Of a stretch of DNA of 64,000 nt, positions 22,279 to 43,566 are shown piece after piece; the first letter of the stretch is position 1; every line of letters starts with the position of its first letter. The position numbers were made by a program, and so were the translations under genes. This DNA is from Terriglobia bacterium (GTDB taxonomy: Bacteria; Acidobacteriota; Terriglobia; 20CM-2-55-15): positions 384,001-448,000 of the forward strand of contig CAXWPJ010000010.1 in NCBI GenBank assembly GCA_963664115.2, given 5' to 3'. Under the pieces are notes generated by a model. The model saw only the letters and a list, made by a program, of their open reading frames with translations. It had not been told where the DNA came from and ran no database searches.

Positions 22279-22398
22279 GACGGTCGCTTTCTCATGATCT
22301 CCGCAGCGAACCAACCTGAATTCGGTCTCAATCGTCCTCAAATCAACATCGTCCTCAACTGGTTTGAAGAACTGAAGGAACGGTTGCCGGTGCCGTAA
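22279..22398 (+). pseudogene. Ser/Thr kinase-PD40 protein, C-terminal remnant
   Basis: DGRFLMISAANQPEFGLNRPQINIVLNWFEELKERLPVP*, with no start. Confidence 0.8.
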
Positions 22399-22433
22399 AA
22401 CAGGCCGTTTGTTCCTGTCTATCGCTGAAATCC

Positions 22434-22475
22434 ATTCTCAAGTCCTGAGAAATCATCTTCTCGGACGTTGAGAAT
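22434..22475 (+). repeat. Array site, copy a
   Basis: ATTCTCA AGTCCTGAGAA ATCATC TTCTCGGACGT TGAGAAT. Confidence 0.9.
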
Positions 22476-22543: not shown

Positions 22544-23390
22544 TTGTGCCACGAGCATAGAAGGCCGAATGGCCTTCGAGTGCGCAACTGCTCAACTGAT
22601 GAGGGAGGGCCCCTCGGAATCGGCTTGCAGGAGTTGGTTTCAAACCACCTTTGGCGGCTGTGGTCAAAAGCCATGGTCGTGAGCGCGTAAGGAAAAGGCC
22701 CGGCAGTGATCGGGTCAGGTGTCAGGCAAGAAGAGGACCGCAAGGGAACCACTGCTGAAGTGTCGAAAGCTTAGAGACGATGGCCAAAACCGCGGAGTTA
22801 TAGTTGCTGCGGGATGAGATCCGACGATACCTGTTTACGGGCGGAGTGGCCTCCGGCATGAGAGGTGGCCTGAGCTTGCCAAGAGGCGGTTGAGCGGAAC
22901 GTGGGAACCTGAACTTCGATGCTAACGGAGAAGCCACAAGTGGAAGCACCACGAGGGCGAGAGTACGGATGCGGGGTTCAGGGGCGGACTGCCTTGTAGT
23001 AGTGATGAACCTCTTGTAATGAGAGGGGAGCGAAGGGGGCAGGCCATTCGCGTCATGGTCCATGAACTCAGGAGGAACCGACTGTTGTGGCGGGGAGCAA
23101 CAGTAAGCCGTGTGAGAGAGGGGACGTCCGCGTTGCGCCTTGAAAGGGAAGTCTAGTCAGCCTGCCGTGGCAAATTCGCGTCATGGTCACTGCCGTAGAC
23201 AGGGAGGGAGTTGATAGCCCCGAAATCGATCGTGGTTGAAGTAGCCGACCTTGTCAACTGGTAACAGGAGGAACCGACTGTTGTGGCGGGGAGCAACAGC
23301 TCTCAGTGAATGGCAAGAGCCGTGTGAGTTGAGAGGCTCACGCACGGTTCTGTGAGAGGCTCGGGGTGAAATTCCCCGGGCCTACTCGGC
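22544..23390 (+). mobile_element. ORF-less or internally deleted group II intron
   Basis: 5' TTGTG followed by a CCACG/CGTGG basal stem. Domain V GAGCCGTGTGAGTTGAGAGGCTCACGCACGGTTC (23317-23350); domain VI ends CCTACTCGGC. Boundaries are inferred. Confidence 0.75.
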
Positions 23391-23671
23391 CGTCAAGTAG
23401 AAGGTCGACTGATGTGCCAGAGGGCGGCTTGTGCGGCGTTGACGATCAATTCCCTAAACACTAGGCGACAAGGGTGGATCTATCTCACGAATCTCACTCA
23501 GCTCCCTTTATCAGAGATGGCGGAACCGGCGACCCGAATCGAGGAGGACCTGACTCCAGGGCTCTTTGACAGACGGAATAAACGACGGCGTCGGAGAATG
23601 GCCGTGCTGGCAATGCCAGCAGAGGGCTGACGTCAGGTGGCGGATCAGCGGAATAAGCAGGGTCTGGTGTT

Positions 23672-24154
23672 ATGGAACCGACAAAGACAAAGCTCGTTGA
23701 ATTCGGTCGCTTTGCTCAGCGGGATGCGGGCAAGCACGGGAGAAAACGTCCAGAAACGATCTACTTTCTGGGCATGACCCTGTACTGCTCGCAGAATCGC
23801 AAAGGCAATTTCCGGGTGGGATTGCGCACTGAGAAGTCTCGACTTCAACGCAGTCTGGCCCATCTACGCGATCTGATGAGACGAATGCGTCACTTGCCGG
23901 TCCGGGAGCAGGTTCAGAATCTGAATCGGGTCTTGCGTGGTCACTACGCCTACTACGGCATCGCCGGAAACTTCCGGGCCCTCCAGCACGTTGCTCGGGT
24001 CGTGGAGCGTTACTGGCGCAAGATGCTGAGCAGCCGGAGTCGCGCTGGTTACGTCCGGTGGGAGGTATTCAACCGGATTAAGACGCGCTTTCCGTTGCAG
24101 CGGCCCAAGCTGGCGCTTCCGTATCGGGAGTTCCAGTCTCTTGCTGTGTTGTGA
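23672..24154 (+). pseudogene. Group II intron reverse transcriptase/maturase, C-terminal fragment
   Basis: KTKLVEFGRFA, PETIYFLGMT, LNRVLRGHYAYYG (domain X); the YADD region is missing. Confidence 0.88.
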
Positions 24155-24167
24155 ATCCGTTTCTGAA

Positions 24168-24241
24168 GAGCGTAGTGCGGGAAATCCGCACGCTACGTTC
24201 TGTGGGAGCCGGAGGCGGGTGACCGCCTCTGGCGACCCGGT
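24168..24241 (+). ncRNA. Domains V-VI of a second group II intron
   Basis: GAGCGTAGTGCGGGAAATCCGCACGCTACGTTCTGTGGGAGCCGG...GGCGACCCGGT directly after the RT stop codon. Confidence 0.85.
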
Positions 24242-24957
24242 CCTCGGGGTGAAATTCCCCGGGCCTACTCGGCCGTCAAGTAGAAGGTCGACTGATGTGC
24301 CAGAGGGCGGCTTGTGCGGCGTTGACGATCAATTCCCTAAACACTAGGCGACAAGGGTGGATCTATCTCACGAATCTCACTCAGCTCCCTTTATCAGAGA
24401 TGGCGGAACCGGCGACCCGAATCGAGGAGGACCTGACTCCAGGGCTCTTTGACAGACGGAATAAACGACGGCGTCGGAGAATGGCCGTGCTGGCAATGCC
24501 AGCAGACGACTATGGCAGCGCTGTCAATGTCGTCGTATGAGTGTTATGTCAACCCGCGCGCGGCCACAGGCCGTCGCGCGACGGAGGCGTACTTTACAGA
24601 ACGTCGAGGAGCCCGACCAAGCGCAACGCAACACTGGCGGATGGATCCGGCGCTGGAGCGGACAACTCGTGAGAACTGCGGGTTAGGGACGAAACCTGCT
24701 GGTGCCGAAACCGTTAACCAAAGAATTAGAGGTGGGAGAGCACAATCAGAAGGCCGCCAGCCCGCTTGACCTGACCCTGGCATCAACTCGTCGCGACGAC
24801 GTTAGCTTGCCCGTGCCCCGCAGTTCCACGCCCGGCATCGCTTCATTGAGTGGTAACGCGGGTGGTAACACCCATCAAGCGCTGGCGCCCGGATGAAACA
24901 GGATCGAAGCGGGGCACAAGCGCAGCGCTGAACACAGTTCGTTGCAGAGATTGAACG

Positions 24958-29110: not shown

Positions 29111-30495
29111 GAGTTATTGTCAAAAGTGGTGTTTAGGAGATTGATTCAAGCGGCGGCCTGATCGACTTGTGTCGCTTCGACACCATCGTTGAATTTCACT
29201 CCGATGATTACCTTGCTCAGATCATCGAATCCTCGTAATCGTCGCCAATTGTTCTCAGCGCACTGGCCCAGTTTGAACATCATGTGCAGCATGCCATCCC
29301 GTGTCAGGCAACCTCTGGATCGCTTCGTTCGGTGTCGAATGGTGGCAAAGGTCGACTCAATGGGATTCGTCGTTCTGATGCTCTGCCAGTGCTTGGCCGG
29401 AAAGTCGTAAAAGGCCAGCAGTTCCTCTCTGTCTTTCTGCAGGCAGAGTGTGGCTTTCGGATACTTCGGTTCATAGGTTTCAATGAACAAGTCGAATGCC
29501 TTCTCGGCGTCTGCCTTCGTCTCGGCCTGCCAGATCGAGTGCAGGGCCTGTTTCGCCTTCGCCTGGACCGACTTGGGCAGGCAGTTGAGGACGTTCATGA
29601 CTTTGTGCATCCAGCAACGTTGTTGACGTGTCTCGGGATAGATTTCCTCCAGTGCGGCCCAGAACCCCATCGCACCGTCACCGATGGCCAACTTCGGAAC
29701 ATTCATCCCACGGGACTTCAGCTTCAACAAGACCTCGCGCCAACTCTGTGTCGATTCCCGTACACCGTCTTCGATCGCCAGGAAACGCTTCTCTCCGCGT
29801 TCATTCACGCCGATCACGACCAATGCACACAACTTGGTTTGTTCCGCCCGAAGTCCGCTGTAGATGCCGTCGGCCCAGACATAGACCCAGCGATCTGCAT
29901 CCAAACGCTCCTCGCATCCGAGGCGGTACTGTTCGCCCCAAACCTGTTTCAACCGCGATACCGTGCTCGCCGACAGACCCTGCGCCTGGGGACCGACAAG
30001 AACTTTTAGGGCCTCACCCATCTCGCCGCTGGAAACGCCTTTCAAATACAACCACGGCACCGCTGCTTCCAGCGACTTCGTCTTCCGAATGTACGGTGGT
30101 ACCAGGGCCGATCGGAACGTCACAGCTTCGCCCGTCTTGGCACGGACCTTCGGGATTTGGACTGTTACCGGACCCAATCCCGTCTGCAGTTCGCGTTCCG
30201 GCAGATAACCGTTGCGTACCACCCCGGCGTTTCCTGTCTCAGTTCGCCGGCCACCGTGCTGGGATAGCAGCTCTGCCAATTCGGCTTCCACTGCGCGTTG
30301 GATCAGTTGCTGTGCCCCAACTCGTAGTAGTTCTGTTACTGGATCCTCAATCGTTTCTCGACCTTCCGGTCCATTCACGTTACTCTTGCTCACAGTGGCG
30401 TATCTCCTATGGTTGCTTTGAAGTTTTGTCACAACAAATCAACCAGATACGCCGCTCTTATTCAATCCCTCAAACACCAGATTCGGTTATAACTC
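29111..30495 (-). mobile_element. IS256-family insertion sequence
   Basis: IRs GAGTTAT...TGGTGTTT / AAACACCA...ATAACTC; 9-bp target duplication AGTGCTTTT at 29102-29110 and 30496-30504. Confidence 0.93.
29146..30393 (-). CDS. IS256-family transposase
   Basis: RNGYLPER, YVWADG, IGDGAMGFW, QRCWMHK, RTTNPIESTF. Confidence 0.95.
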   Translation of the reverse strand: MSKSNVNGPEGRETIEDPVTELLRVGAQQLIQRAVEAELAELLSQHGGRRTETGNAGVVRNGYLPERELQTGLGPVTVQIPKVRAKTGEAVTFRSALVPPYIRKTKSLEAAVPWLYLKGVSSGEMGEALKVLVGPQAQGLSASTVSRLKQVWGEQYRLGCEERLDADRWVYVWADGIYSGLRAEQTKLCALVVIGVNERGEKRFLAIEDGVRESTQSWREVLLKLKSRGMNVPKLAIGDGAMGFWAALEEIYPETRQQRCWMHKVMNVLNCLPKSVQAKAKQALHSIWQAETKADAEKAFDLFIETYEPKYPKATLCLQKDREELLAFYDFPAKHWQSIRTTNPIESTFATIRHRTKRSRGCLTRDGMLHMMFKLGQCAENNWRRLRGFDDLSKVIIGVKFNDGVEATQVDQAAA

Positions 30496-30684: not shown

Positions 30685-31335
30685 ATGTCGATTGTGTTGA
30701 GCTTGACTCTGATACTTATCCCATTGGCGCAAAGTCGCGATGATGTGAGCGAACGCCTCGACGAGGCCGCCGAGGTCTTTAGTGAACTTCTGAACGCGCC
30801 CGATGCCGACGTGCCCGAGGGGTTGCTCGAAGATGCCGAATGCGTCGCGGTGATCCCCGACGTTCGGAGAGCGGCATTTGGATTCGGCGGCCAGTCGGGG
30901 CGCGGTGCAGCATCCTGCCGAACGGATGGAGGCTGGAGCGCTCCTTCTATGCTCGCTCTGGACGGGGGGAGTTTTGGCTTTCAGATCGGAGTCAGCTCGT
31001 CCGACGTAGTCCTGCTCTTCATGGCCGATGACAGCGTCGAGCACCTGCTCGAGAACGAGGTGACCTTGGGTGGGGATGCCAGCGTTGCGGCTGGCCCGAA
31101 GGGCCGGGACCTCGGCGCCGATACGAACCTGACGTTTCAGGCCGAAATCCTTTCGTACAGCCGAAGCCGTGGCCTATTTGCGGGGATCGCGATCGAAGGT
31201 GCCTCGATGCGACCCGACCGGGATGCGAACGAAGTGCTGTACGGCCGGGAGATCTCGCCTGCGGAAATCCTTATGGAAGGAACGCCCGTGCCCGAACTGG
31301 CGACGCGATTCATTGAAGCGTTGCGATCAAACTGA
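30685..31335 (+). CDS. Lipid-binding SYLF (Ysc84) domain protein
   Basis: WSAPS, GGSFGFQIG, LGGDASVAAGP, SYSRSRGLFAG; AGGAGG RBS. Confidence 0.92.
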   Translation: MSIVLSLTLILIPLAQSRDDVSERLDEAAEVFSELLNAPDADVPEGLLEDAECVAVIPDVRRAAFGFGGQSGRGAASCRTDGGWSAPSMLALDGGSFGFQIGVSSSDVVLLFMADDSVEHLLENEVTLGGDASVAAGPKGRDLGADTNLTFQAEILSYSRSRGLFAGIAIEGASMRPDRDANEVLYGREISPAEILMEGTPVPELATRFIEALRSN

Positions 31336-31438
31336 GCTTCGTTCGTCGGCTTCGTGTCTCGGTGTTGAATGCTCTACTTCCGCGTCTCGATTCCTCTTTC
31401 AAGTGGGTACACGTATCCCTCAGTTCCTAATTCTGGAA

Positions 31439-31478
31439 GTTCAAGTCCTGAGAAATCATCTTGTCGGACATTGAGAAT
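31439..31478 (+). repeat. Array site, copy c
   Basis: GTTCA AGTCCTGAGAA ATCATC TTGTCGGACAT TGAGAAT. Confidence 0.9.
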
Positions 31479-31636
31479 TTCAGCGAACGGAAGCTAGAAC
31501 GCAGCCCGACGCTACCCCTACGTTGCCCCAAGGACACGCGCGTAGCCTGTAACCAGTTGATTCCGTGGTGCTAAATGTTTTGAATCTACTGACAACTAGT
31601 CAGCTTCCTGCCGAATGGCTGGATTTCGAGGCGCCA

Positions 31637-32065
31637 CTACTTGGTGGGCGCGCCCGACAAGTGGTATTCGTTCCCTAATTCCTCTGTTCCGCCCATCTCC
31701 AACGTCTTGCCATCCGCGAACTCGACGCGCACGATGCGTCCCACGGGTTTCCCACTCTTGGCCGGTTGTACAGTGACGGTAACCTGATCCCCAGGTTTCA
31801 GGGAGTTCTTCCTCCAGCCGGCATCAATCATGTTGGCCGGAGCCCTAGTCTCCGCAACCCACTGCACCACCTCGCTGCTGTCGGTCTTTACGTCGAACTT
31901 CAGGAGACAGTGCGGGTTGGCCCAGAACCATTCCGTGACCGTCCCCTCAATCGTGAGATTTTTCCCGGTCTCAAAAGCCGCCCCGCTGTGGTGTGCGAAC
32001 ATCGGAACCGCGACGATCAAAGCACCGAGAGACAGGGACAGATGGATCACGATCTTCCTCTTCAT
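31637..32065 (-). CDS. DUF6152-family secreted protein
   Basis: Signal peptide, AHHS, GTVTEWFWANPH, LKPGD. Confidence 0.8.
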   Translation of the reverse strand: MKRKIVIHLSLSLGALIVAVPMFAHHSGAAFETGKNLTIEGTVTEWFWANPHCLLKFDVKTDSSEVVQWVAETRAPANMIDAGWRKNSLKPGDQVTVTVQPAKSGKPVGRIVRVEFADGKTLEMGGTEELGNEYHLSGAPTK

Positions 32066-32225
32066 GGGTGACCTCCGTCTTGCTTCAAGACTCCCTGCAT
32101 CCTAAGGAACTAAGCTGATTGTAAAGACAGCTCCCGCCACGCGGTCAATTCTGAGATCAAGCTGCCCATAAGCCCGCGTTTCTGGTTCCGGCCCCAGGTC
32201 CAGGTGAAGGGCCACCTGCAGGTTA

Positions 32226-33116
32226 CTAGTTGTCGTTCTCGACGCCGCTGGCGGCGTTGCCGAACAACTCGTTATATTGTTGCATCTCTACCGGCGAGCA
32301 GTACATCTCCATGACATCGGTATGGGGGTCTGCCAACTTAAACATGATCTTCATGGTCATCCAGGGTTTTGTATAAACCTTGGGGTCGTCAATCGTCTCC
32401 GTCCACTCCATGTGGTCGCTATCCACACGGCGGAAAACTTCCTCTACGGTTACCGCGTCGCTGATCGGCCGACCTGTAGAATCGAGCCAGACTCTGTCTT
32501 CCGGCATCATCCCCACCGTCTGGACGACCAGTGTGTAATCATCGGTCCACTTGCCAACCGAGTACCCATACCACCGTGGCTCCTTAAATGTTCCGCCCGC
32601 CATCACGCCTCCCTCAACTATCTTGGGGAGCTCTCGCCCATCGATCCAGATGTCCCGCGACCTGTTGTCATATTCATACAGGATCGCGATCTTATATGGG
32701 TTCTGAAAGATCTGCGTCATCCTGACGTTGTAGTGATTGATGCGCGGGAATCCTAACGGCTCGCACTTATTCCTCGGATCATTACCAAACGCCGGGAGAA
32801 CTGCGTCGACGCCCTCCAGTGCCTTATTGCTCCTGTATAATTCCAACCCGTAAGGAGTGTAAGGCAATGCATGTTCCGGCTTCCCGTCGTTTGGCATGGC
32901 CTGCACGCCACCGAACTGGATTGCGCCCCCCGGCCCGCTGGCCGGCGTCCAAGTCCCCGAAAGGTCACGACGTGGAGCAGGTCCTGGTTCGGAACTATCA
33001 GCCGCTTCCGGCGGCCGCCGACCCTGGGCGCGCGTATCAGGCGAGAGTGCCAACACTGTGAATGCTGTAAATACCGCAATCAACACAGTCGCCGGAAACA
33101 GAAAAGGCTTTGCCAT
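32226..33116 (-). CDS. Secreted hypothetical protein (DUF6152-associated family)
   Basis: DLSGTW, CEPLGFPR, GYSVGKW, TIDDPKVYTKPW, EMYC; paralogous to 51107-51859. Confidence 0.8.
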   Translation of the reverse strand: MAKPFLFPATVLIAVFTAFTVLALSPDTRAQGRRPPEAADSSEPGPAPRRDLSGTWTPASGPGGAIQFGGVQAMPNDGKPEHALPYTPYGLELYRSNKALEGVDAVLPAFGNDPRNKCEPLGFPRINHYNVRMTQIFQNPYKIAILYEYDNRSRDIWIDGRELPKIVEGGVMAGGTFKEPRWYGYSVGKWTDDYTLVVQTVGMMPEDRVWLDSTGRPISDAVTVEEVFRRVDSDHMEWTETIDDPKVYTKPWMTMKIMFKLADPHTDVMEMYCSPVEMQQYNELFGNAASGVENDN

Positions 33117-33192
33117 TTGGAAACCCCTCCGACTTCAAGTTAGCCTACATTTTACTTACCCGAAATAAATTTTTAGCCCTCCCTCCGGAAGC

Positions 33193-33459
33193 GTGGAGTA
33201 TACACCCGTTTCGGGCACTGGAATTCTCGTAGCCGTACCGATTCAAACCAGTCCGACGTTTGCAACGAGTAGACTGCGGGAATTGTTTCCACTTGCTCGG
33301 TTACGAGCTATGAATAATGTCGCTAACTACGACATCGAACCTGAAGGTGAGAGATTCATCATGACGACAGAGGACGAGGCAGGGGAGGCATCCTCGAAAC
33401 AAATCAACATCGTCCTGAACTGGTTTGAGGAACTGAAAGAACGGGTGCCGGTGCCATAG
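33193..33459 (+). pseudogene. Ser/Thr kinase-PD40 protein, longer C-terminal remnant
   Basis: LVAVPI...ELF...NYDIEPEGERFIM...QINIVLNWFEELKERVPVP*. Confidence 0.82.
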
Positions 33460-33588
33460 TTTTTGAGTTCAAGTCCTGATAAATCGCAGTATGAAAGGAC
33501 GCCCCTAGACTGGGGGTTGTTGAGAGAAGACTCACTCAACAACCTGATCAACGTATACAGCGTTGATCCCAGAAAAGGAGCGTTCGAG

Positions 33589-34653
33589 ATGAAACAAGAC
33601 AAGTATATGGGTATGGATGTGCACCAGGCAACGACGGTGGTTGCGGTGAGAGACGGGAGCGGCAAACTGGTGTTTGAAACGATCGTGGAAACCGAGGCGG
33701 GGAGTATCACACGGCTGCTGGAGGGATTGAGTGGGCCGATGCACGTGGGGTTGGAGGAGACCACGCAAGCGGGCTGGTTATCGGAAGTGATCCGGCCGTG
33801 GGTGAGCGAGGTGGTGGTGTGCGATCCGCGACAGAACAAGTGGATGCAAGAAGGGTCGAAGGGGGATAAGCCGGATGCGCGGAAGCTGGCCGAGCTGTTG
33901 CGGGTGGGACTGTTGCGCTCGGTGTATCACGGCCATGAAGCGACGCGAGAATTGAAGCAACTGGTGCAGGCCTATGACACGTTCCAGTTGGACACGCAAC
34001 GGGTGATGTCGCGGATCAAAGCGATATACCGGGGACGGGGGATCCCGACACCGAAGGACGGAGTCTATCGGCCGAGTCAGCGCGAACAGTGGTTGGAGAA
34101 GCTGACCGAGCCGGGGATGAGGCAGCGCGCCCGATGGTTGTATGCGGAACTGGACCAGGTCCAGTTGCTGCGGAAACAATCCAGAAAAGCGGTGCGAGTG
34201 GAGGGCCGGCACCATGAGGCGGTGAAACTGCTCGAGACCATTCCACAACTGGGACCGGTTCGGGCGGCACAGATCGTCGCCATCGTGGACACGCCGTACC
34301 GATTCCGCACGACACCGCAGTTCTGGAGCTACAGTGGCCTGGGTGTGGTGACCCACATGAGCGCGGAGTATGAGATGCAGAGTGGACGTGTGGTGCGACG
34401 GAGGAAACCGGTGGCCACACGCGGATTGAATGCGAACTGCAACCGGCGATTGAAGTCGGTGTTCTTCTCAGCCGCGGCATCGGGAAAACAAAGCGAGCCG
34501 TATCGGATTTATCTGGAGAGTCTCCAGATGCGTGGGATGCGGGAGGAAATGGCGCGGGTCACTCTGGCCCGTAAGATCGCCGCACTGGTGCTGACGCTTT
34601 GGAAGAAAGGAGAATCGTTCGATCCAAAGAAACTGAGCTGGATGACAACATAA
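33589..34653 (+). CDS. IS110-family DEDD recombinase/transposase
   Basis: MGMDVH, LEET, KGDKPDARKLA, TIPQLGPVRA, FWSYSGL, LARKIA. Confidence 0.93.
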   Translation: MKQDKYMGMDVHQATTVVAVRDGSGKLVFETIVETEAGSITRLLEGLSGPMHVGLEETTQAGWLSEVIRPWVSEVVVCDPRQNKWMQEGSKGDKPDARKLAELLRVGLLRSVYHGHEATRELKQLVQAYDTFQLDTQRVMSRIKAIYRGRGIPTPKDGVYRPSQREQWLEKLTEPGMRQRARWLYAELDQVQLLRKQSRKAVRVEGRHHEAVKLLETIPQLGPVRAAQIVAIVDTPYRFRTTPQFWSYSGLGVVTHMSAEYEMQSGRVVRRRKPVATRGLNANCNRRLKSVFFSAAASGKQSEPYRIYLESLQMRGMREEMARVTLARKIAALVLTLWKKGESFDPKKLSWMTT

Positions 34654-34714
34654 GCCGTTTCGATCCGTGACCGGTAGAGCCGTACTGAGTCGTTAGACGG
34701 AGTCGGAACAACTG

Positions 34715-34845
34715 AGGATCGAGGGTGAGGATCTGCACAAGATGTGGTCCCTGGATACGTCCAGAGGACACTTTTAAATCTCTATCCCCCCTCGCACGAC
34801 CTGAAACAGCGATAGCCTTCGAGGCTCAGATAGATCCATGGTCGG
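34715..34845 (+). ncRNA. Putative bridge/seek RNA of IS110 #1
   Basis: Two stem-enclosed internal loops: ACAAGATG / TAAATC match the target, and GCGAT / ATAGATC match the element's end junction. Confidence 0.7.
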
Positions 34846-35368
34846 CACATGCCGTCCCATATGCTGTTCAGTTTCTGAATCGACCGTCTTAAAGATGTAC
34901 GATTTCGCTCCGGATTGCCGGAACCAGGGCTTCACATAACGGTAGAGGGGCTGGCTGTCACGACAAAAGTGTCCGTCTGGCCGGCCATCGGGGAGCTGTT
35001 TCTCTTGACATCCCCTTTCATAGATCATCTTGTCGGAAGTTGAGAATTGGATTGTGTGGTTTTCGTCGATCCCGAGAGTAGGAAATAGAGACAGTTCTTT
35101 TGTTTTCCTATTGAATAAGACTGGATTCCAGGACTGTGACGGCTCTGAGCCGTTGGTCCAATCCGCCGACCGTCGTCCGGCAGAGCATCAGCGCCGCATA
35201 CCCCAGACACATGCCCCCGCCAATGGTCCATTCCCGGCGAGTTCTGGACAGGTTCAAAACGCTTTCGTTCACGACGTGGAGCCGAAACGTTTGTCAGTCA
35301 AACTTGTCAGAAACTTTCTCGGTGATTGCATTCTGCTTGGACTCGATATTCGAGTGCGCTATTTTTCG

Positions 35369-37579
35369 CTAGCCGCTCAACCATCCCGGCAGAATAGCCT
35401 TGATCTGGTTCCAATAGATCGCGCCGAGAATTACGACAGCGAGCAGGGCGAATAGGGAAACCGCACCGACACGAGTCCAACGAGTTCCTCCGTGGCCGGT
35501 CTGACGTAGGAAGAGGGTGACCAGATCGCGGCGTTCCTTGCGTGCCCCTTCTGGCAAGTGGGGCGTGTGGCTGAAGAGGTATCCGAGCCGCCGCGTCATG
35601 TACATGCGGAAGTTCACCGCCCAGCCGCAGGCCTCCAACAGAGCGCTCATGTCCCGCTTGCGCAGCTTGTTCCAACCCGCAAGGGCACTGAACAGGGCCA
35701 CCACGAGAACCAGGCTCATCAAGGTAATGCCGACCCTCAGAAGGCTGATTTCCGAAAGTGTGCTGATCAGGTAGGCCAGCGATGAACCGATGGCGGCGAA
35801 GGCAATGCCGCCGCCAAGCAGCAGGTCGCGCATGCCAATGCCAGATTGGGGTGGGGCTTGGGCCGATGGCGCCTCGGCAGGCTGCTGGAGCGATTCGCCT
35901 GCTTCCATCTTCGTCGTGACCTCGGTCGTGGCCTTTTCCAGGGATCCCGCCTGGGTGCCTACAAAGGCTTCAACCTTCTCGGATATTAGTTTCTTGGCTT
36001 TCACAAAAGGCGACTTGACCGCTTCGCCCAGGCTGATGGGGTTCTCGATCAAATCCACCACTCGTGCGTCCCACTCATTGCCATCGAGATCATAGAAGAT
36101 ACCGCGCTTGCCAATTTCGATGGCCCCCTGGCCGCCGGAGGTGAGAGCGGCGGCAATCTCGAAACTGGGCCCCAGCCCCTCGGGTACAGTGATCTCGGCG
36201 TACACCAGGTACATCTCGCTGGCCTGGGCGATCTTCTTGTGCTCGGCGCGATTTCGGACCTTTGTCGTGAATGTAAGTTCACGGCCGTCAATGATCAGGT
36301 CGCCCAATTCAAACAGGGCGCGGCGATCCGGGTCGTACATCGCGGAGAAACTTACAAAGTTGTTGGCCAGTTCCAGGAGCCAGCGTTGGTACAGGATGAG
36401 CGTCTCCAGGTCCGTCACCTGCTTCACTTCATCCTTCACCGCTAGATCCTCCAGCAGGAGCTCGAAGAGCCTCTTCTCGGCCGGACCATCTAAATATTCC
36501 CTCAGCGTTGTCTCGCTGATCCGTCCGACGCCATCCGACGGCTTTCCCGCCTGCCACCCTCGGTAGGGCTCGAAAATGGCCTGGACCTGCCCCCAGCCGA
36601 TCCGCGTGAGAGATTGGCGGGAGTTTGGCTGGGCACGGGCAAGGACCCGATTTTGTAATTCGTCCATCTGTTCCCGGTAGTACGGATTGATGGGGCCCCG
36701 CAGATTCAACACACCTTCAGCGTTTGGCGTTTGCAGGGGCGCTCGCGCGAGCTGACTTCTCAGAGCTTCCAGGTCGGAGCCGTCCAGGTTCCAGAGATCG
36801 TGTTCATTCAGGCAGATGCGTTCGGCGGTGCGGGCATCGAGCTGGACCATGTCGCATTGCAAGAAGAACTGTCGGATCTTGGCATCGAACTCCGACGTGA
36901 GCTTCACCGCGGCCGCCGTGTCGCCGCCCCAGGGCAGAATCCCTGCCGCGCCGTCATCTTCGGCGAGCGTCTTCCAGTCCAGGTACGTCCTCGCACGATC
37001 CAGGAATTGGCGCAGGTGATCTTCGTTTATTCCGTCTGCGCCGCTGATGTCCTTGGTACTGCCGACCTGTTTGAGTACGTCCGCTGCCAACTGTGCCGCC
37101 CCGGGATCCGAAACGTGCTCGGGGGGGAGCACCCCGTCGCCGTTGGGAGGCAATTTCCCATATGTATTCTGAAATACGCGGACCTGTTCGAGGCTGATCT
37201 GGTCCATGTTCTTTGCCTTCAACTGGCCCAGGATATGGATCGCGGCTTCCTGGAGCCCCCGGCCCTCCTCGTGGCTGGTATCCAGGTCCGCGAGGCGCAG
37301 GACATCGGAGGACTCAGCCATTCGGTCTCTCGTTGCCATCATATGGAATGTCCAGGTCACTCCCGCCCGCAAATGCTCGGCACGGATTGTCCCGCTGCCA
37401 TCCTGATTCAAGTACTTGAGGAACGCGGGATCGCATTGCAGGCTTTCGATCTGCACACTGGTGGCAGCCCAGCGAGCGGGGTGGAGCTGGTGAATGAAGG
37501 CCAAATCCTCCGCACTCTCGATGCGCAGTTGGTGGATGCCGCCGTAATTTCGAAAGACAATGGGCTTCACAACCCACAT
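35369..37579 (-). CDS. Large hypothetical membrane protein
   Basis: About 736 aa, with an EF-hand-like NQDGSGTI, a helical body and C-terminal TM helices. It is the only gene between sites d and e. Start uncertain. Confidence 0.75.
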   Translation of the reverse strand: MWVVKPIVFRNYGGIHQLRIESAEDLAFIHQLHPARWAATSVQIESLQCDPAFLKYLNQDGSGTIRAEHLRAGVTWTFHMMATRDRMAESSDVLRLADLDTSHEEGRGLQEAAIHILGQLKAKNMDQISLEQVRVFQNTYGKLPPNGDGVLPPEHVSDPGAAQLAADVLKQVGSTKDISGADGINEDHLRQFLDRARTYLDWKTLAEDDGAAGILPWGGDTAAAVKLTSEFDAKIRQFFLQCDMVQLDARTAERICLNEHDLWNLDGSDLEALRSQLARAPLQTPNAEGVLNLRGPINPYYREQMDELQNRVLARAQPNSRQSLTRIGWGQVQAIFEPYRGWQAGKPSDGVGRISETTLREYLDGPAEKRLFELLLEDLAVKDEVKQVTDLETLILYQRWLLELANNFVSFSAMYDPDRRALFELGDLIIDGRELTFTTKVRNRAEHKKIAQASEMYLVYAEITVPEGLGPSFEIAAALTSGGQGAIEIGKRGIFYDLDGNEWDARVVDLIENPISLGEAVKSPFVKAKKLISEKVEAFVGTQAGSLEKATTEVTTKMEAGESLQQPAEAPSAQAPPQSGIGMRDLLLGGGIAFAAIGSSLAYLISTLSEISLLRVGITLMSLVLVVALFSALAGWNKLRKRDMSALLEACGWAVNFRMYMTRRLGYLFSHTPHLPEGARKERRDLVTLFLRQTGHGGTRWTRVGAVSLFALLAVVILGAIYWNQIKAILPGWLSG

Positions 37580-38119
37580 TCTACTCTGGAGTGTCCCGGC
37601 CGCGTGGGTGCCACACGTATTTTCGCCGCGATCCGGTTTCCGAAGGTGCGGGTGGCGATTCGTTAGTTTCTTGTCGAAATCCGTTAGATTTCCTTTCTTG
37701 CGATCATGTTCTGAAAATCCGCTCAGGGGCGCGAGCGGCAGAACTGACGTCAATAGTTCGGCTCGATTGGCGTCGCTTTTCTGCTGCGGAGGCCTTGTTC
37801 TGGGCCGTCGTGGACATCATCAACTTAAGCTGTTCGATGGCGTTTTCGGCTCCCTCTGTCGCCTCCGGCGACAGTTTTGCCGGCATCTGGCCATCCATTG
37901 CACTGCAAACCCTGCTGCCGAGTAGAGGAAGCCACTATCGGTCCGTAGGTATCCCCTTGGCCGTATCCGCCGTTTCCGGCATCGTGCCCGTGCCCTGATC
38001 TTCAAGGTCAAGTCCTGTATCTGGACTCCTCTGTCAAGTAGGCGCAGCTCTCCCGTCAGCTTTCTTCGGCAAAATGCATTCAGCAGGACTGACTAGAAGT
38101 TACGAGGTGAGTAGCTAGT

Positions 38120-39966
38120 CCCTGAACAAGCGTGATTGACGAGGAAATGATAGTGCAATAAGAGCGGAAGTACCCGAAATGCCCCCTCTCCGTGCGAAAA
38201 AAACCTTGAACAGATTCTTCGGAAAAGGAGGCATTTCAGATGAACGATTATACGCGCAAGAACATGAGGAACCGCAAGCGGCGAATCGAACGTCGGCTTG
38301 GGGACCGGCATTGGACGGATCAGGTAGAGCCGATGTTTTCGGCGAGCAACATTCAGTACGAGATGGGAGAGCGGACGCGGGGCACATCGGTTGGTGGTAT
38401 CGGGACGATGCAACTGGTGGCGCGGCGGACCGGGCTGATCGAAGCCATCGACAAGGGCGTGCATGTGTTGAAGCGGCACCTGCCGTATCACGAGTCGGAT
38501 CACGTGCTGAACATCGCCTACAACGCCTTGAGCGGAGGAACGTGCCTGGAAGACATCGAACTGCGGCGCAACGATGCGGTGTATCTGGATGCGCTGGGAG
38601 CGCAACGGATTCCGGATCCGACGACGGCGGGAGACTTCTGCCGGAGATTCGAGGCCGACGACGTGGAGTGTCTGATGGAGGCAACCAATCAAGTCCGGCT
38701 CGGAGTCTGGCGACAGCAACCGGCGGCGTTTTTCGAAGAAGCGGTGTTGGACGCGGACGGGACACTGGCCGAAACCACGGGGGAATGCAAGCAAGGGATG
38801 GACGTGGCCTACGACGGGACGTGGGGATATCACCCGCTGATGATCTCGCTGGCCAACACCGCCGAACCGCTGTATCTGGTCAATCGTAGCGGCAACCGGC
38901 CGTCGCATGAAGGAGCCGCGGTCCGGTTCGACCAAGCCATCGCATTGTGCCGGCATGCGGGGTTTCGCCAGATCCTGCTGCGCGGGGACACGGACTTCAG
39001 CCAGACCCGGCATCTGGACGGATGGGACGACCAGCAGGTGGGTTTCATATTCGGGATTGACGCGATGGCGAACCTGAAGGCCCGGGCCGATGAACTGGAG
39101 CCGCGCCAGTGGAAGCGCCTGGAACGGCCCGCGAAATACGACGTGGCGACCGAACCGCGCCAACGTCCCGACAACGTGAAGGAAGAGATCGTTCGGCAGC
39201 GCGGTTTCGACAATATCCGCTTGCAGGGTGAGGATGTGGCCGAGTTTCGGTATCGACCCGGAGCCTGCGATCGGGACTACCGTGTCGTCGTGGTGCGGAA
39301 GAATCTGTCGGTGGCCAAAGGAGAGCAGGTGTTGTTTGACGACATCCGGTACTTCTTCTACATTACCAACCGTTCGGATCCGGCCGACCAGATTGTGATG
39401 CGTGCCAATCAACGGTGCAATCAGGAGAATCTCATTGAGCAGTTGAAGAACGGCGTTCAGGCGTTGCGGATGCCGGTCGGAGATCAGACCAGCAACTGGG
39501 CCTACATGGTGATCGCGTCACTGGCCTGGACACTGAAAGCGTGGTTTGCATTGCTGCTTCCCGAAACCGGACGTTGGGGCCAAAAATATCAGGCTGAGAA
39601 GCAAACCGTGCTGCGCATGGAGTTCAAAACCTTCTTGAACGCTTTCATGCTTGTGCCGTGCCAACTCGTGCGCACCGGGCGGCGCATTCTGTTCCGGATC
39701 CTGGCCTGGAACCGGTGGTTGCCGGTCTTGTTCCGCGGGGTGGATGTGTTGCGTCAGCCTCTGCGATGTTGACCCGATCATGACTCTGAGCCCGGGCGAT
39801 CGAGGTCCCGGTTTCTGTCAACCGTCCAACACCAGCGAGGCTGAACTGAAACAGATTCAACAGAAACTCGATACCTGGAACAGGCCATCCGGGAACGGGA
39901 TTCTATGCCTCGAATTCTATCGGCGCGAACTGGGCCTCGGCGGACTGGTTATGCGCTTGTTTTGGG
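38120..39966 (+). mobile_element. IS1380-family element, copy 1
   Basis: IRs CCCTGAACAAGCG / CGCTTGTTTTGGG; 6-bp duplication GCTAGT; 1847 bp. Confidence 0.92.
38240..39772 (+). CDS. IS1380-family transposase
   Basis: LDADGT, GYHPL, LRGDTDF, NQRCNQENLIEQLK. Confidence 0.92.
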   Translation: MNDYTRKNMRNRKRRIERRLGDRHWTDQVEPMFSASNIQYEMGERTRGTSVGGIGTMQLVARRTGLIEAIDKGVHVLKRHLPYHESDHVLNIAYNALSGGTCLEDIELRRNDAVYLDALGAQRIPDPTTAGDFCRRFEADDVECLMEATNQVRLGVWRQQPAAFFEEAVLDADGTLAETTGECKQGMDVAYDGTWGYHPLMISLANTAEPLYLVNRSGNRPSHEGAAVRFDQAIALCRHAGFRQILLRGDTDFSQTRHLDGWDDQQVGFIFGIDAMANLKARADELEPRQWKRLERPAKYDVATEPRQRPDNVKEEIVRQRGFDNIRLQGEDVAEFRYRPGACDRDYRVVVVRKNLSVAKGEQVLFDDIRYFFYITNRSDPADQIVMRANQRCNQENLIEQLKNGVQALRMPVGDQTSNWAYMVIASLAWTLKAWFALLLPETGRWGQKYQAEKQTVLRMEFKTFLNAFMLVPCQLVRTGRRILFRILAWNRWLPVLFRGVDVLRQPLRC

Positions 39967-39974
39967 GCTAGTCG

Positions 39975-40110
39975 ACTGCACCCGTATCTTCGGCCTCAAA
40001 AGTGGAACTGTATTGTTCCAGGCCATGATGGAAATTTGCGCGCGGGGAGCCAACCGATAAAATAACGGCCTCTAAGGGCCAAAGGACTTGTCGGCGTTGC
40101 CCCGCGCCGG
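39975..40110 (-). ncRNA. Putative bridge/seek RNA of IS110 #2
   Basis: On the minus strand: CAAGTCCT-hairpin-TTTAT (target) and CCATCA-hairpin-AGATA (donor junction). Confidence 0.68.
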
Positions 40111-40178
40111 TCTGACCGGTACGCCATCATCTCGAACCTCATCGCAGCTCGCTGAAAAGATATTCCGACTGTTCCGGG

Positions 40179-41213
40179 TCAGGCCGCCTGATACCGGGCC
40201 TGATGGTCACAGTCACGGTTCCAAACCGCCCACACGCGACGCGCCAACTTGTTGGCCAGTGCAACGATTGCCTTGTTGTGTCCGCGGAACTCGTGTTTCT
40301 GGAGACCCCATTGCTGGAGAGGTGTCGGTGTGGCGCCCTCTCGATGGGCACTCCACAACAGGGAACGGCCCCCATGAACCAACAGCATCCGGAGGTAACG
40401 ATCGCCTTGCTTACTGATCCGGCCCATGCGTCGCTGGTTGCCACTGGAATGTTCCCGGGGTGTGAGTCCCAGATAACTGGCAAAATGGCGGGACGTTCGG
40501 AATCGTTTGATGTTTCCAACAAACCCCACCATTGCCGTTGCCGTTAACAGGCCGATGCCGGGAATCGACGTCAGACGCGCGACCTCAGGCATCTGCCGAG
40601 CCAGCGTCTTCAACTCTTGTTCCACCGATCGCATGCGAGATTCCAATTCACGGATCTCGCCACACACCTGGTGAAACATCTCCCGAACGACACTGGGGAT
40701 GACGACATCTGCATCTTCGATCAGCTCCATTACCCCCGGCACCAGATGATCCGCTCCGGTCGGGATCACGTAGCCAAACTCCCGTAACAACCCCCGCACC
40801 GTATTGATCCGTGCGGTTCGGGTTCGCATCCACGCCGAACGGATTCGATGCAATGAGGTCAGTTGCTGTTGGGCCAGGGTTTTGACCGGCACTGGATGAA
40901 TATCGCTGTCACGATAGGCTTCCAACAATCCTTTCACATCCGTACGGTCGGTCTTGTTGCGCCTGACGTAGGGCGTCACATACTGCGGCGAGATCAGAAC
41001 GACCGTGTGTCCCAGTTCCCGGATCTTCCGACCCCAGTAATGGGCGGATCCGCAGGCTTCCATCACCACGGTCGCCAGCTCCTGGTTCGCAAAGAACCCC
41101 AGAAACTTTGCCCGACTTAAACGATAGGTTTTCTCTACATGCCCGGGGCGATCTGAAACACCAATTTGAAAAACATTCTTTGCCAGATCCACTGCTATCG
41201 TTCTATTCTTCAT
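40179..41213 (-). CDS. IS110-family DEDD recombinase/transposase
   Basis: IAVDLAK, MEACG, KTDRTD, SIPGIG, GLTPREHSSG, ISKQGD, ALANKLAR. Confidence 0.95.
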   Translation of the reverse strand: MKNRTIAVDLAKNVFQIGVSDRPGHVEKTYRLSRAKFLGFFANQELATVVMEACGSAHYWGRKIRELGHTVVLISPQYVTPYVRRNKTDRTDVKGLLEAYRDSDIHPVPVKTLAQQQLTSLHRIRSAWMRTRTARINTVRGLLREFGYVIPTGADHLVPGVMELIEDADVVIPSVVREMFHQVCGEIRELESRMRSVEQELKTLARQMPEVARLTSIPGIGLLTATAMVGFVGNIKRFRTSRHFASYLGLTPREHSSGNQRRMGRISKQGDRYLRMLLVHGGRSLLWSAHREGATPTPLQQWGLQKHEFRGHNKAIVALANKLARRVWAVWNRDCDHQARYQAA

Positions 41214-41373
41214 CTCGGACTCCTTTTTGTTCACACGTACACGTGTTTCGCCCGCTTTATTGCGAGGCTCAAAATGACTTTGGCACTTCGATGCCGACTC
41301 AGTCATCAAAGAGGAGTCCATACCATCAATAAATCATCTTCTCGGACGTTGAGAAACCCGCTGATTCAAATCA

Positions 41374-41402
41374 TTGCTTCCAACCCACTCGTTCTATAGC
41401 TT
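41374..41402 (+). promoter_or_regulatory. Conserved array-associated sigma70-like promoter
   Basis: TTGCTT-17 bp-TAGCTT, homologous to the blocks at 19.54, 48.06 and 55.42 kb. Confidence 0.55.
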
Positions 41403-41451
41403 TCTCGAGCTTTTTCACGTTTAGCAACATCAGAGACAAGGCCCCGAGCGT

Positions 41452-41568
41452 ATGCCCCTCACGTCAGGCACAAAACTCGGTCCGTTTGAGATCCGTGATG
41501 CGATAGGTGCGGGTGGCATGGGCGAAGTCTATCGGGCCACCGATACGCGGCTGGGCCGCACTGTTTAG
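41452..41568 (+). pseudogene. Ser/Thr protein kinase, N-terminal remnant
   Basis: MPLTSGTKLGPFEIRDAIGAGGMGEVYRATDTRLGRTV*. Confidence 0.87.
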
Positions 41569-41719: not shown

Positions 41720-43566
41720 CCCAAAACAAGCGCATAACCAGTCCGCCGAGGCCCAGTTCGCGCCGATAGAATTCGAGGCATAGAATCCCGTTCCCGGATG
41801 GCCTGTTCCAGGTATCGAGTTTCTGTTGAATCTGTTTCAGTTCAGCCTCGCTGGTGTTGGACGGTTGACAGAAACCGGGACCTCGATCGCCCGGGCTCAG
41901 AGTCATGATCGGGTCAACATCGCAGAGGCTGACGCAACACATCCACCCCGCGGAACAAGACCGGCAACCACCGGTTCCAGGCCAGGATCCGGAACAGAAT
42001 GCGCCGCCCGGTGCGCACGAGTTGGCACGGCACAAGCATGAAAGCGTTCAAGAAGGTTTTGAACTCCATGCGCAGCACGGTTTGCTTCTCAGCCTGATAT
42101 TTTTGGCCCCAACGTCCGGTTTCGGGAAGCAGCAATGCAAACCACGCTTTCAGTGTCCAGGCCAGTGACGCGATCACCATGTAGGCCCAGTTGCTGGTCT
42201 GATCTCCGACCGGCATCCGCAACGCCTGAACGCCGTTCTTCAACTGCTCAATGAGATTCTCCTGATTGCACCGTTGATTGGCACGCATCACAATCTGGTC
42301 GGCCGGATCCGAACGGTTGGTAATGTAGAAGAAGTACCGGATGTCGTCAAACAACACCTGCTCTCCTTTGGCCACCGACAGATTCTTCCGCACCACGACG
42401 ACACGGTAGTCCCGATCGCAGGCTCCGGGTCGATACCGAAACTCGGCCACATCCTCACCCTGCAAGCGGATATTGTCGAAACCGCGCTGCCGAACGATCT
42501 CTTCCTTCACGTTGTCGGGACGTTGGCGCGGTTCGGTCGCCACGTCGTATTTCGCGGGCCGTTCCAGGCGCTTCCACTGGCGCGGCTCCAGTTCATCGGC
42601 CCGGGCCTTCAGGTTCGCCATCGCGTCAATCCCGAATATGAAACCCACCTGCTGGTCGTCCCATCCGTCCAGATGCCGGGTCTGGCTGAAGTCCGTGTCC
42701 CCGCGCAGCAGGATCTGGCGAAACCCCGCATGCCGGCACAATGCGATGGCTTGGTCGAACCGGACCGCGGCTCCTTCATGCGACGGCCGGTTGCCGCTAC
42801 GATTGACCAGATACAGCGGTTCGGCGGTGTTGGCCAGCGAGATCATCAGCGGGTGATATCCCCACGTCCCGTCGTAGGCCACGTCCATCCCTTGCTTGCA
42901 TTCCCCCGTGGTTTCGGCCAGTGTCCCGTCCGCGTCCAACACCGCTTCTTCGAAAAACGCCGCCGGTTGCTGTCGCCAGACTCCGAGCCGGACTTGATTG
43001 GTTGCCTCCATCAGACACTCCACGTCGTCGGCCTCGAATCTCCGGCAGAAGTCTCCCGCCGTCGTCGGATCCGGAATCCGTTGCGCTCCCAGCGCATCCA
43101 GATACACCGCATCGTTGCGCCGCAGTTCGATGTCTTCCAGGCACGTTCCTCCGCTCAAGGCGTTGTAGGCGATGTTCAGCACGTGATCCGACTCGTGATA
43201 CGGCAGGTGCCGCTTCAACACATGCACGCCCTTGTCGATGGCTTCGATCAGCCCGGTCCGCCGCGCCACCAGTTGCATCGTCCCGATACCACCAACCGAT
43301 GTGCCCCGCGTCCGCTCTCCCATCTCGTACTGAATGTTGCTCGCCGAAAACATCGGCTCTACCTGATCCGTCCAATGCCGGTCCCCAAGCCGACGTTCGA
43401 TTCGCCGCTTGCGGTTCCTCATGTTCTTGCGCGTATAATCGTTCATCTGAAATGCCTCCTTTTCCGAAGAATCTGTTCAAGGTTTTTTTCGCACGGAGAG
43501 GGGGCATTTCGGGTACTTCCGCTCTTATTGCACTATCATTTCCTCGTCAATCACGCTTGTTCAGGG
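41720..43566 (-). mobile_element. IS1380-family element, copy 2 (inverted)
   Basis: Same IRs and same 1847-bp length; has its own GCTAGT duplication. Confidence 0.92.
41914..43446 (-). CDS. IS1380-family transposase
   Basis: Protein identical to 38240-39772. Confidence 0.92.
   Translation of the reverse strand: MNDYTRKNMRNRKRRIERRLGDRHWTDQVEPMFSASNIQYEMGERTRGTSVGGIGTMQLVARRTGLIEAIDKGVHVLKRHLPYHESDHVLNIAYNALSGGTCLEDIELRRNDAVYLDALGAQRIPDPTTAGDFCRRFEADDVECLMEATNQVRLGVWRQQPAAFFEEAVLDADGTLAETTGECKQGMDVAYDGTWGYHPLMISLANTAEPLYLVNRSGNRPSHEGAAVRFDQAIALCRHAGFRQILLRGDTDFSQTRHLDGWDDQQVGFIFGIDAMANLKARADELEPRQWKRLERPAKYDVATEPRQRPDNVKEEIVRQRGFDNIRLQGEDVAEFRYRPGACDRDYRVVVVRKNLSVAKGEQVLFDDIRYFFYITNRSDPADQIVMRANQRCNQENLIEQLKNGVQALRMPVGDQTSNWAYMVIASLAWTLKAWFALLLPETGRWGQKYQAEKQTVLRMEFKTFLNAFMLVPCQLVRTGRRILFRILAWNRWLPVLFRGVDVLRQPLRC

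What the first reader, a model, noticed from the sequence alone, without database searches (positions are those of the whole stretch)
33467..35047. IS110 #1 is inserted in the spacer of the array site, and its bridge RNA guides are readable
Seen: removing 33486-35026 restores a full site. In the 3' non-coding end, ACAAGATG (34737-34744) is the reverse complement of the right target flank CATCTTGT. After an inner hairpin, TAAATC (34775-34780) equals the left flank plus core. A second loop has GCGAT (34809-34813) and ATAGATC (34830-34836), matching the right-end/left-end donor junction CATAGATC-GCAG. Established: IS110/IS1111 recombinases use a non-coding RNA with target- and donor-binding loops. 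Inference: a natural bridge recombinase programmed against this array site, which also implies the site is abundant enough to be a stable target.
Basis: partly seen in the sequence, partly recalled or inferred. Interest (0 to 1): 0.75.

Follow-up and report, generated by a model that had tools for sequence, protein, structure and literature searches.

The report
RNA-guided jumping gene targets unknown repeat
This small bacterial jumping gene sits, in all seven of its copies, at the centre of an unnamed 38-letter DNA repeat found about 170 times in the genome, and it carries a predicted guide RNA that spells that spot; the guiding trick is known, but the repeat, likely a gene-shuffling site, appears undescribed.

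Summary
Confirmed. The 1541-bp element is an IS1111-type IS110 element with a 3' bridge/seek RNA. All four quoted segments are at the stated coordinates. All 7 genomic copies have the repeat's right half as flank, and all 6 intact copies sit at TAAATC|ATCTT. They favour the rare site variant that the guides spell (5 of 6, against 4 of 132 empty sites; p=2e-6). Across related elements both target guides change with the flanks (6.05/7 and 5.47/6, against about 3 when permuted; p<5e-5). One correction: the donor match GCGAT is weak. It does not follow the core and can be masked by a conserved 3' tail; ATAGATC does follow it. The mechanism is published, as is IS1111 targeting of attC and REP repeats, and this scan found attC cases on other DNA before. 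What looks new is the target: a 38-bp palindrome (16-6-16, about 170 copies, two acidobacterial genera) that marks flank-swap breakpoints. A second, distant IS1111 family hits it in both arms with matching guides. Its recombinase was not identified. Close relatives use short dispersed targets, so aiming at this site is probably a recent retargeting. Expression and activity are untested.

The parts
33401..33459 (+). 3' tail of a Ser/Thr kinase-PD40 gene (ends ...WFEELKERVPVP-stop); such tails precede about half of the main-type sites
   Evidence: 66 of 128 main sites have the tail; 81 of 89 tails are followed by a site arm; full-length family typed
33467..33485 (+). left half of the 38-bp site, ending in the core TC (33484-33485)
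33486..35026 (+). IS1111-type IS110 element, 1541 bp (33484-35024 in the 7+3 convention); 7 copies in the genome at 99.6-100% identity
33491..33498 (+). left sub-terminal inverted repeat ATGAAAGG, 7 nt in from the end when the core is counted left
   Evidence: sequence directly
33589..34653 (+). DEDD recombinase/transposase, 354 aa; D10, E57, D93, D96 and S258, all invariant in 35 homologues
   Evidence: PF01548 + PF02371; NF033542 122 bits, under its cut-off of 140
34718..34873 (+). predicted bridge/seek RNA core: target-binding stem-loop, donor-binding stem-loop and 3' tail
   Evidence: expression not shown
34737..34744 (+). target guide 1, complement of the top strand (last core base plus 7 nt of right flank)
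   Evidence: changes with the right flank in 22 guide sets
34775..34780 (+). target guide 2, same sense as the left flank plus core
   Evidence: changes with the left flank in 17 guide sets; unpaired probability 0.89
34801..34813 (+). first donor-loop segment (AAACAGC then GAT); 5 of 7 match to the left end, weak as a guide; pairs with the 3' tail
34830..34836 (+). second donor guide ATAGATC, same sense as right end plus core
   Evidence: its last two bases follow the core class in 30 of 30 sequences
34863..34871 (+). conserved 3' tail complementary to 34801-34810; predicted to mask the first donor segment
   Evidence: helix 96.7% paired in 30 sequences, one compensatory column pair; unpaired probability falls from 0.90 to 0.15 when the tail is included
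35005..35010 (+). TTGACA, predicted -35 box of a promoter formed at the circle junction (weak -10 candidate CAGTAT at 17 bp)
   Evidence: junction printed; inference from PMC11187229
35014..35021 (+). right sub-terminal inverted repeat CCTTTCAT, followed by the 3-nt extension AGA and the core TC
   Evidence: sequence directly
35027..35045 (+). right half of the 38-bp site
38018..41328 (-). second, distant IS1111 element (transposase 23% identical; interrupted by an IS1380) inserted in the left arm of another copy of the site (halves 38006-38017 and 41329-41354), with its own matching guides
22436..22473 (+). intact copy of the 38-bp site (others at 31439, 47388 and 47957; a degenerate one near 26628)

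Best explanation
This is an IS1111-type insertion sequence that sits in the middle of the 6-bp spacer of a repeated 38-bp palindrome, and its 3' non-coding RNA likely guides its DEDD recombinase to that spot. Shown: the anatomy, the fixed insertion point and orientation, the preference for the guide-matching site variant, and the change of both target guides with the flanks across relatives. Inferred from ISEc11 and IS621 work: the element forms a circle; the joined ends make a promoter (TTGACA in the right end); the RNA is made with the transposase message; guide 1 pairs with the top strand right of the TC core and guide 2 with the bottom strand left of it; ATAGATC pairs with the donor's right end; recombination at TC inserts the element without a real duplication. 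Also inferred: the target is a tyrosine-recombinase-type site of a gene-shuffling system, which offers many intergenic landing places, and the element was retargeted to it recently by changes in its guides.
For: 7 of 7 right flanks and 6 of 6 intact left flanks are site halves, in the same register and orientation, with different outer flanks. Variant choice: TAAATC 6 of 6 vs 36 of 132 empty sites (p=6e-4); ATCTTGT 6 of 7 vs 31 of 132 (p=1.5e-3); both 5 of 6 vs 4 of 132 (p=1.9e-6). Covariation: guide 1 6.05/7 (n=22) vs 3.27 permuted; guide 2 5.47/6 (n=17) vs 3.01; without the core 3.47/4 vs 1.42; none of 20,000 permutations reached the observed values. The consensus fold leaves the guides unpaired inside conserved stems; 12 of 35 pairs show two-sided change, 0 of 500 shuffles reach that, slid controls 2-5. 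Catalytic D/E/D/D and S are invariant. The guide order (top-strand complement first) and the 7+3 ends are as described for IS1111 (PMC11187229). A 97% relative in G002 sits at the same point.
Against: No expression or circle was seen: RNA-run contigs cover only pieces, at depth 2-10, and no end-to-end joint appears in 8 runs, all of them contigs, which drop rare forms. The 3' end as a single sequence folds no better than shuffles (z=-1.13 and -0.84), and its minimum-energy fold pairs the last three bases of guide 1 (mean unpaired probability 0.60). The base after guide 1 is T where the core predicts A, and this position varies among relatives without following the core. The first donor segment does not covary with the left end. 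The transposase scores under the NCBIfam IS110 cut-off. The relatives in the permutation test are kin, so its p-values overstate.
Confidence: 0.9

Rival explanations
1. The protein recognises the palindrome or its hairpin, or follows a protein bound there, and the RNA matches are incidental.
For: All 7 empty exact 13-mer targets in the genome lie in site-like contexts, so sequence and palindrome cannot be separated here. Two IS1111 families and a recombinase-Y2 element all gather at the site.
Against: The element picks the rare variant that its guides spell. Relatives with the same scaffold and other guides insert elsewhere: 0 of 8 (G001), 0 of 9 (G003) and 0 of 7 (G021) rebuilt insertions lie in a site.
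Confidence: 0.05
2. One old insertion was copied by segmental duplication, cassette shuffling or mis-assembly, so the seven copies are not independent choices of target.
For: Parts of C6 and C11 are near-duplicates, and the sites are shuffling breakpoints.
Against: Outer flanks and site variants differ among the copies. An empty allele exists for one of them. In two other runs the element's shared contig starts at 33480, with A/T variation just before it.
Confidence: 0.04
3. The RNA works as a seekRNA only: the target loop guides, while the donor ends are recognised mainly by protein at the inverted repeats, and the second loop is structural or only half a guide.
For: The short 82-nt ISEc11 seekRNA sufficed for movement (PMC11187229). 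Here the first donor segment is weak and can be masked by the tail.
Against: ATAGA(T/A)C follows the core class in 30 of 30 sequences, and the second stem-loop is conserved with two-sided changes. The core switch may, however, be a single evolutionary event.
Confidence: 0.3
4. For the target only: the 38-bp repeat is a REP/MITE-like selfish repeat or an integron attC variant, not a double-stranded tyrosine-recombinase site.
For: It can fold as a hairpin, lies between genes, often just after stop codons, and IS110/IS1111 elements are known at REP and attC. G000-G002 encode an integron integrase.
Against: 15 site pairs share one flank and differ in the other, against 0-3 at 14 shifted anchors. 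The arms are conserved while the 6-bp spacer comes in classes (ATCATC, ACGAC(A/C), ATCCTC, ATCCGG). G003 has 56 sites and no integron integrase match. No site lies within 4 kb of the G000 integrase. The G of the would-be GTT box is only 54% conserved.
Confidence: 0.2

Closest known systems
IS1111 family and seekRNAs: ISEc11, ISKpn4, ISPst6, ISPa25 (attC) and ISPa11 (REP); Siddiquee et al. 2024, PMC11187229 (parts 1-3 of 9 read)
   Same: Non-coding region downstream of tnp, sub-terminal inverted repeats with 7+3 extensions, one orientation, top-strand complement before the bottom-strand match, natural reprogramming between relatives, repeated intergenic sites as targets.
   Different: The target is neither attC nor a described REP; insertion is at the centre of a 6-bp spacer. 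The inverted repeats are short (8-9 bp against the usual 11-13), the catalytic motif reads SA rather than SG/TG/TA, and the transposase is at most 29% identical to the 25 best plasmid-borne IS110 hits listed.
IS621 bridge recombinase; Durrant et al. 2024, PMC11208160 (section 12 and passages); Hiraizumi et al. 2024, PMC11208158 (passages)
   Same: Two stem-loops, each with an inner hairpin between two guide segments; 2-nt core; DEDD plus serine active site.
   Different: The RNA lies at the right end and the guide order is reversed. Only one donor segment clearly covaries, and a 3' tail can cover the other. Durrant et al. note multi-loop donor regions in many IS1111 RNAs, so this may not be unique. 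Sequence likeness to IS621 is weak (E=3e-5).
IS1202 family at pdif/dif sites and Acinetobacter dif modules (PMC10132070; start of abstract in a search listing only)
   Same: An insertion sequence that homes on an Xer-type site; arrays of modules bounded by such sites.
   Different: By that abstract, IS1202 elements have terminal inverted repeats and land 5 bp from the XerC arm; that they use a DDE enzyme and no RNA guide is recalled. Here conservation extends to 16-bp arms, most neighbouring sites are in direct orientation, and the match to the genome's own dif is partial (XerC arm 6-8 of 11, XerD arm mostly 5-6 of 11).
IS4321/IS5075 in the 38-bp terminal repeats of Tn21 (reference title seen; the 38-bp length is recalled)
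   Same: IS1111 members aimed at the repeated site of another mobile system.
   Different: The target here is itself palindromic and is a flank-swap breakpoint, not a transposon end.

Membership tests
IS110 superfamily | DEDD (RuvC) domain plus C-terminal Tnp domain with catalytic serine | tested here: met
   PF01548 54.6 bits and PF02371 36.1 bits, both over the cut-off; D10, E57, D93, D96, S258 invariant in 35 homologues
IS110 superfamily | NCBIfam NF033542 curated cut-off | tested here: not met
   122.3 bits against 140, over the whole length; read as a divergent lineage, not as non-membership
IS1111 family | long non-coding region downstream of tnp | tested here: met
   about 100 bp upstream, about 370 bp downstream
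IS1111 family | sub-terminal inverted repeats with 7-nt left and 3-nt right extensions | tested here: met
   ATGAAAGG pair with TCGCAGT and AGA outside; 8-9 bp, at the short end of the 7-17 bp range (PMC11208160)
IS1111 family | single target and single orientation | tested here: met
   7 of 7 right flanks, 6 of 6 intact left flanks
IS1111 family | RNA with top-strand complement 5' of the bottom-strand match | tested here: met
   (predicted RNA)
IS1111 family | transposase falls in the IS1111 clade of a reference phylogeny | not tested
   no ISfinder reference set at hand; the tree holds only close relatives
IS1111 family | circular intermediate with a junction promoter | tested here: inconclusive
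   perfect -35 and weak -10 in the rebuilt junction; no junction in contigs of 8 runs
bridge RNA (IS621 type) | donor-binding loop with two guide segments that covary with the donor | tested here: inconclusive
   the second segment follows the core in 30 of 30; the first does not (0 of 22 GT; 4-5 of 7 match)
bridge/seek RNA | RNA is expressed, binds the transposase and is required | not testable with these tools
   only contigs of RNA runs were available
IS1111-attC group | target is an integron attC site | tested here: not met
   38 bp long, GTT box not conserved, no link to the integron integrase; the attC definition is recalled
Xer dif/pdif site (for the target) | 11-6-11 layout with arms like the host dif, acted on by XerC/D | tested here: inconclusive
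   6-bp spacer flanked by AA and TT; XerC-arm match 6-8 of 11 in 160 of 171 sites, XerD-arm 5-6 of 11 in 150 of 171; enzyme not tested

The most novel reading that the evidence does not exclude
The 38-bp palindrome is the recombination site of an undescribed chromosomal cassette-shuffling system, with about 170 sites per genome, possibly run by the host's XerC/D. It has become a shared landing pad: RNA-programmed IS1111 elements have aimed at it three ways (spacer centre, left arm, right arm), and a tyrosine-recombinase/Y2 element joins it at the spacer edge. In addition, this lineage's guide RNA carries a 3' tail that switches its donor loop off.
Probability: 0.35. Interest if true: 0.72.

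Novelty: new member of a known kind. Interest (0 to 1): 0.43.

Why it matters
The guiding principle is published, so the element itself is not a surprise. Its value is threefold. It gives a clean natural reprogramming series (30 guide sets on one RNA scaffold, with flanks) in a divergent transposase lineage, useful for working out IS1111 pairing rules and the disputed role of the donor loop. It shows single-base discrimination among variants of a repeat inside one genome. And it points to an apparently undescribed, very abundant recombination-site array that several mobile elements parasitise; inserting in the spacer would be expected to block that site and freeze the neighbouring cassettes.

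Tried and rejected
(1) The 321-aa tyrosine recombinase between two inverted variant sites (C5:52189-53154) as the site's enzyme: not found in G001-G004, and none of its 9 homologue loci in other genomes carries a site; rejected. (2) Integron integrase/attC: rejected. (3) Of the tyrosine recombinases of G000, only the XerD-like and XerC-like ones have close matches in G002, G003 and G004 alike; an integrase at C9:517744 also has matches in G002 and G003. No cognate enzyme was identified. (4) Handshake-guide rule for the two bases after each guide: checked by eye in both orientations, no consistent pattern. (5) Rfam, window 31300-41500: 0 matches at E<=1. (6) Circle junction and RNA boundaries: not seen in contigs of 8 runs; the two RNA runs hold only 0.23 and 0.12 of the words, so nothing is claimed about expression. 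(7) Single-sequence folding stability: not significant. (8) My note that L030 gives a second compensatory change in the tail helix was wrong: both affected pairs are broken there. (9) The covariance model of this RNA does not match the second element's RNA in the window (1 match only). (10) Paper searches for a description of the site found none (0 papers; 75 and 76: listings only, none on this repeat). The library lacks most subscription journals, and no supplements were opened, so ISfinder or supplementary tables may already list this element.

Full report
Observation. The four quoted segments are at the stated coordinates, and removing 33486-35026 rebuilds a site that matches the intact repeats of the window. 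The element encodes a 354-aa protein (33589-34653) with both IS110 Pfam domains over their cut-offs. D10, E57, D93, D96 and S258 are invariant in 35 aligned homologues. It scores 122 bits against NF033542, under the cut-off of 140, is at most 29% identical to the best plasmid hits listed, and resembles ISCro4 and IS621 only weakly, so it is a divergent lineage. The ends follow the IS1111 rule of PMC11187229 (parts 1-3 of 9 read): an ATGAAAGG inverted pair with 7 nt outside on the left and 3 nt on the right, a long 3' non-coding end, and TTGACA placed to form a junction promoter. In 5000 shuffles of the 3' end the two target segments never occurred together in order, whereas GCGAT occurred in 1766.

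Other copies. The genome holds 7 copies at 99.6-100% identity. All 7 have the site's right half as right flank. The 6 with an intact left end all follow TAAATC; the seventh has lost its first 18 bp to what looks like an IS1380 end. The outer flanks all differ, and one locus is also present empty (C6:45054), though this may be a strain variant or a duplicate. The repeat is variable at exactly the guided positions, which allows a test. Among 132 empty sites with AAATC, 36 have T before it, 31 have ATCTTGT and 4 have both; among filled sites the counts are 6 of 6, 6 of 7 and 5 of 6 (Fisher p=6e-4, 1.5e-3, 1.9e-6). Only 7 exact empty 13-mers remain genome-wide, all in site-like contexts (0.05 expected by chance). 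A 97% relative in G002 sits at the same point. In two other sequencing runs the element's shared contig begins at 33480, with variation just before it.

Covariation. Homologous loci came from genomes and metagenomes. I kept elements of at least 60% identity, plus one broken copy (L109), that have the conserved RNA scaffold: 30 distinct target loops. 65 hits lacked the scaffold motif, mostly at about 50% identity or at contig ends, and 9 more distant scaffold hits were left out. With one flank per loop, guide 1 matched the reverse complement of the right flank at 6.05 of 7 (n=22; best of four registers, also in the control) against 3.27 permuted. Guide 2 matched the left flank plus core at 5.47 of 6 (n=17) against 3.01, or 3.47 of 4 against 1.42 without the core. 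None of 20,000 permutations reached these values. The loops are kin and some share guides, so the p-values overstate. Poor matches exist (L018 3 of 7, L035 4 of 7). An alignment of 30 RNA regions (L036 dropped for a mis-anchored end, a paralogue remnant from G000 added) folds into two stem-loops with inner hairpins and unpaired guides. For the structure that I named, 96.7% of cells pair and 12 of 35 pairs change on both sides, above all 500 shuffles and all slid controls. The single sequence is no more stable than shuffles.

The donor loop is the weak part. Two end classes exist, with core TC (8 sequences) or AC (22). ATAGATC or ATAGAAC follows the core in 30 of 30, as do the last bases of target guide 2. 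The GA in GCGAT does not: none of the 22 AC-core elements has the expected GT, and the seven bases before it match the left end at only 5 of 7 or 4 of 7. This segment is complementary to a conserved tail at 34863-34871: 8 pairs, 96.7% paired, one compensatory column pair that may be a single event. Adding the tail lowers its unpaired probability from 0.90 to 0.15. Whether this is a pseudoknot, an alternative fold or the multi-loop that Durrant et al. mention for IS1111 (section 12 read) is open. A search for such masking returned 11 papers (10 listed); passages of two of them that I then read did not describe it.

The target. The site is a 16-6-16 imperfect palindrome: 170 hits with up to 10 substitutions, or 171 by an arms-only matrix, with 0 in a reversed-genome control. 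128 have the spacer ATCATC; most others have ACGAC(A/C) and tend to lie inverted upstream of kinase gene starts (16 of 24). 81 of 89 kinase C-terminal tails are followed by a site arm. 15 site pairs share one flank and differ in the other, against 0-3 at 14 shifted anchors, so the sites are recombination breakpoints. The site was found in 9 of 61 genomes searched, all in two genera (136, 90, 56, 13 and 2 copies in the own genus; 1-5 in 4 of 5 of the other), and the spacer differs in some (ATCCTC, ATCCGG). Conserved arms with classed spacers suggest a tyrosine-recombinase site (inference). The arms partly match the genome's own dif-like site. Neither the integron integrase nor the recombinase between two variant sites tracks the site across genomes, so the enzyme is unknown; host XerC/D is my best guess, at about one in three. 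Named homologue records are Acidobacteriaceae and Terriglobia assemblies; four of the runs that hold at least 88% of the words are labelled sponge metagenome.

Convergence. A second IS1111 element in the window (38018-41328; transposase 23% identical) sits in the left arm of another site. 11 of 13 right-end matches in the genome are followed by an exact or one-off site arm, and its 3' end carries CAAGTCCT and TTTATC around a hairpin. In G002 a related subfamily inserts in the right arm with the guide CAACGTCCG, while relatives in G001 and G029 have other guides and other flanks. Relatives of the first element at 64-70% identity use short dispersed targets: 0 of 8, 0 of 9 and 0 of 7 rebuilt insertions lie in a site. 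Aiming at the site is therefore probably a recent retargeting, not a trait of the lineage.

Verdict. RNA guidance by IS1111 elements, their natural reprogramming and their use of attC and REP repeats are published (PMC11187229, PMC11208160), and earlier notes of this scan report attC cases in other genomes (not checked). The element is a new member of a known kind. The site array is the part that may be new; three paper searches found no description of it, within a library that lacks most subscription journals. Expression, circle formation and activity are untested.

Noticed in passing
G000:C3:2939 and C12:569262; L181, L182 (G002); L162 (G004): Elements made of a tyrosine recombinase gene plus an IS91-type Y2 transposase gene are joined to the site exactly at the edge of the 6-bp spacer, their end replacing one arm; six identical copies of a related element lie about 25-30 bp outside site arms or remnants. 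This looks like recombinase-mediated insertion at the site.
   Followed up: partly
window 22340-22473, 33401-33485, 47322-47425 and genome-wide: Ser/Thr kinase-PD40 genes are mostly in pieces: 40 N-termini, of which only 4 run intact to the usual C-terminus, and 89 C-terminal tails, bracketed by inverted variant and main sites. They may be the ancestral cassette of the array.
   Followed up: partly
G000:C12:531000-531500 (L004): Right-end remnant of a paralogous element with core AC and a different target loop that matches its own flank at 8 of 9; no transposase hit there.
   Followed up: partly
L205 (G002:C2:3551909-3555656); run X9: Nested insertions: the first element in the spacer and a second-family element in the right arm of the same site.
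   Followed up: yes
window 33589-34653: The transposase does not group with the other TC-core transposases in the tree (open fork, long branch), although its ends and RNA are of the TC type; possible mosaic, not tested.
   Followed up: no
G000:C5:52060-53269 (L003): A 321-aa tyrosine recombinase lies between two inverted variant sites and two outward-facing kinase starts; probably cargo.
   Followed up: yes
G000:C2, near 108118-108145, minus strand: Single canonical dif-like site of the chromosome.
   Followed up: partly
window 13017-13750: Tandem 108-bp repeats in a secreted-looking protein (12853-13899), probably Sel1/TPR-like 36-aa repeats (label recalled).
   Followed up: no
window 23069-24769: Group II intron maturase fragment (PF08388) with a 269-bp direct repeat and a 35-bp repeat, inside a cassette between two sites.
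   Followed up: no
window 38240-39772 and 41914-43446; 29146-30432; 3963-5048: Two IS1380 copies (one inside the second IS1111 element), an IS256/Mutator-type and a DDE_3 transposase; the IS1380 end occurs dozens of times in the genome.
   Followed up: no
G000 contigs C6 (24227-48382) and C11: Near-duplicate cassette blocks in different order, possibly strain haplotypes or real shuffling.
   Followed up: no
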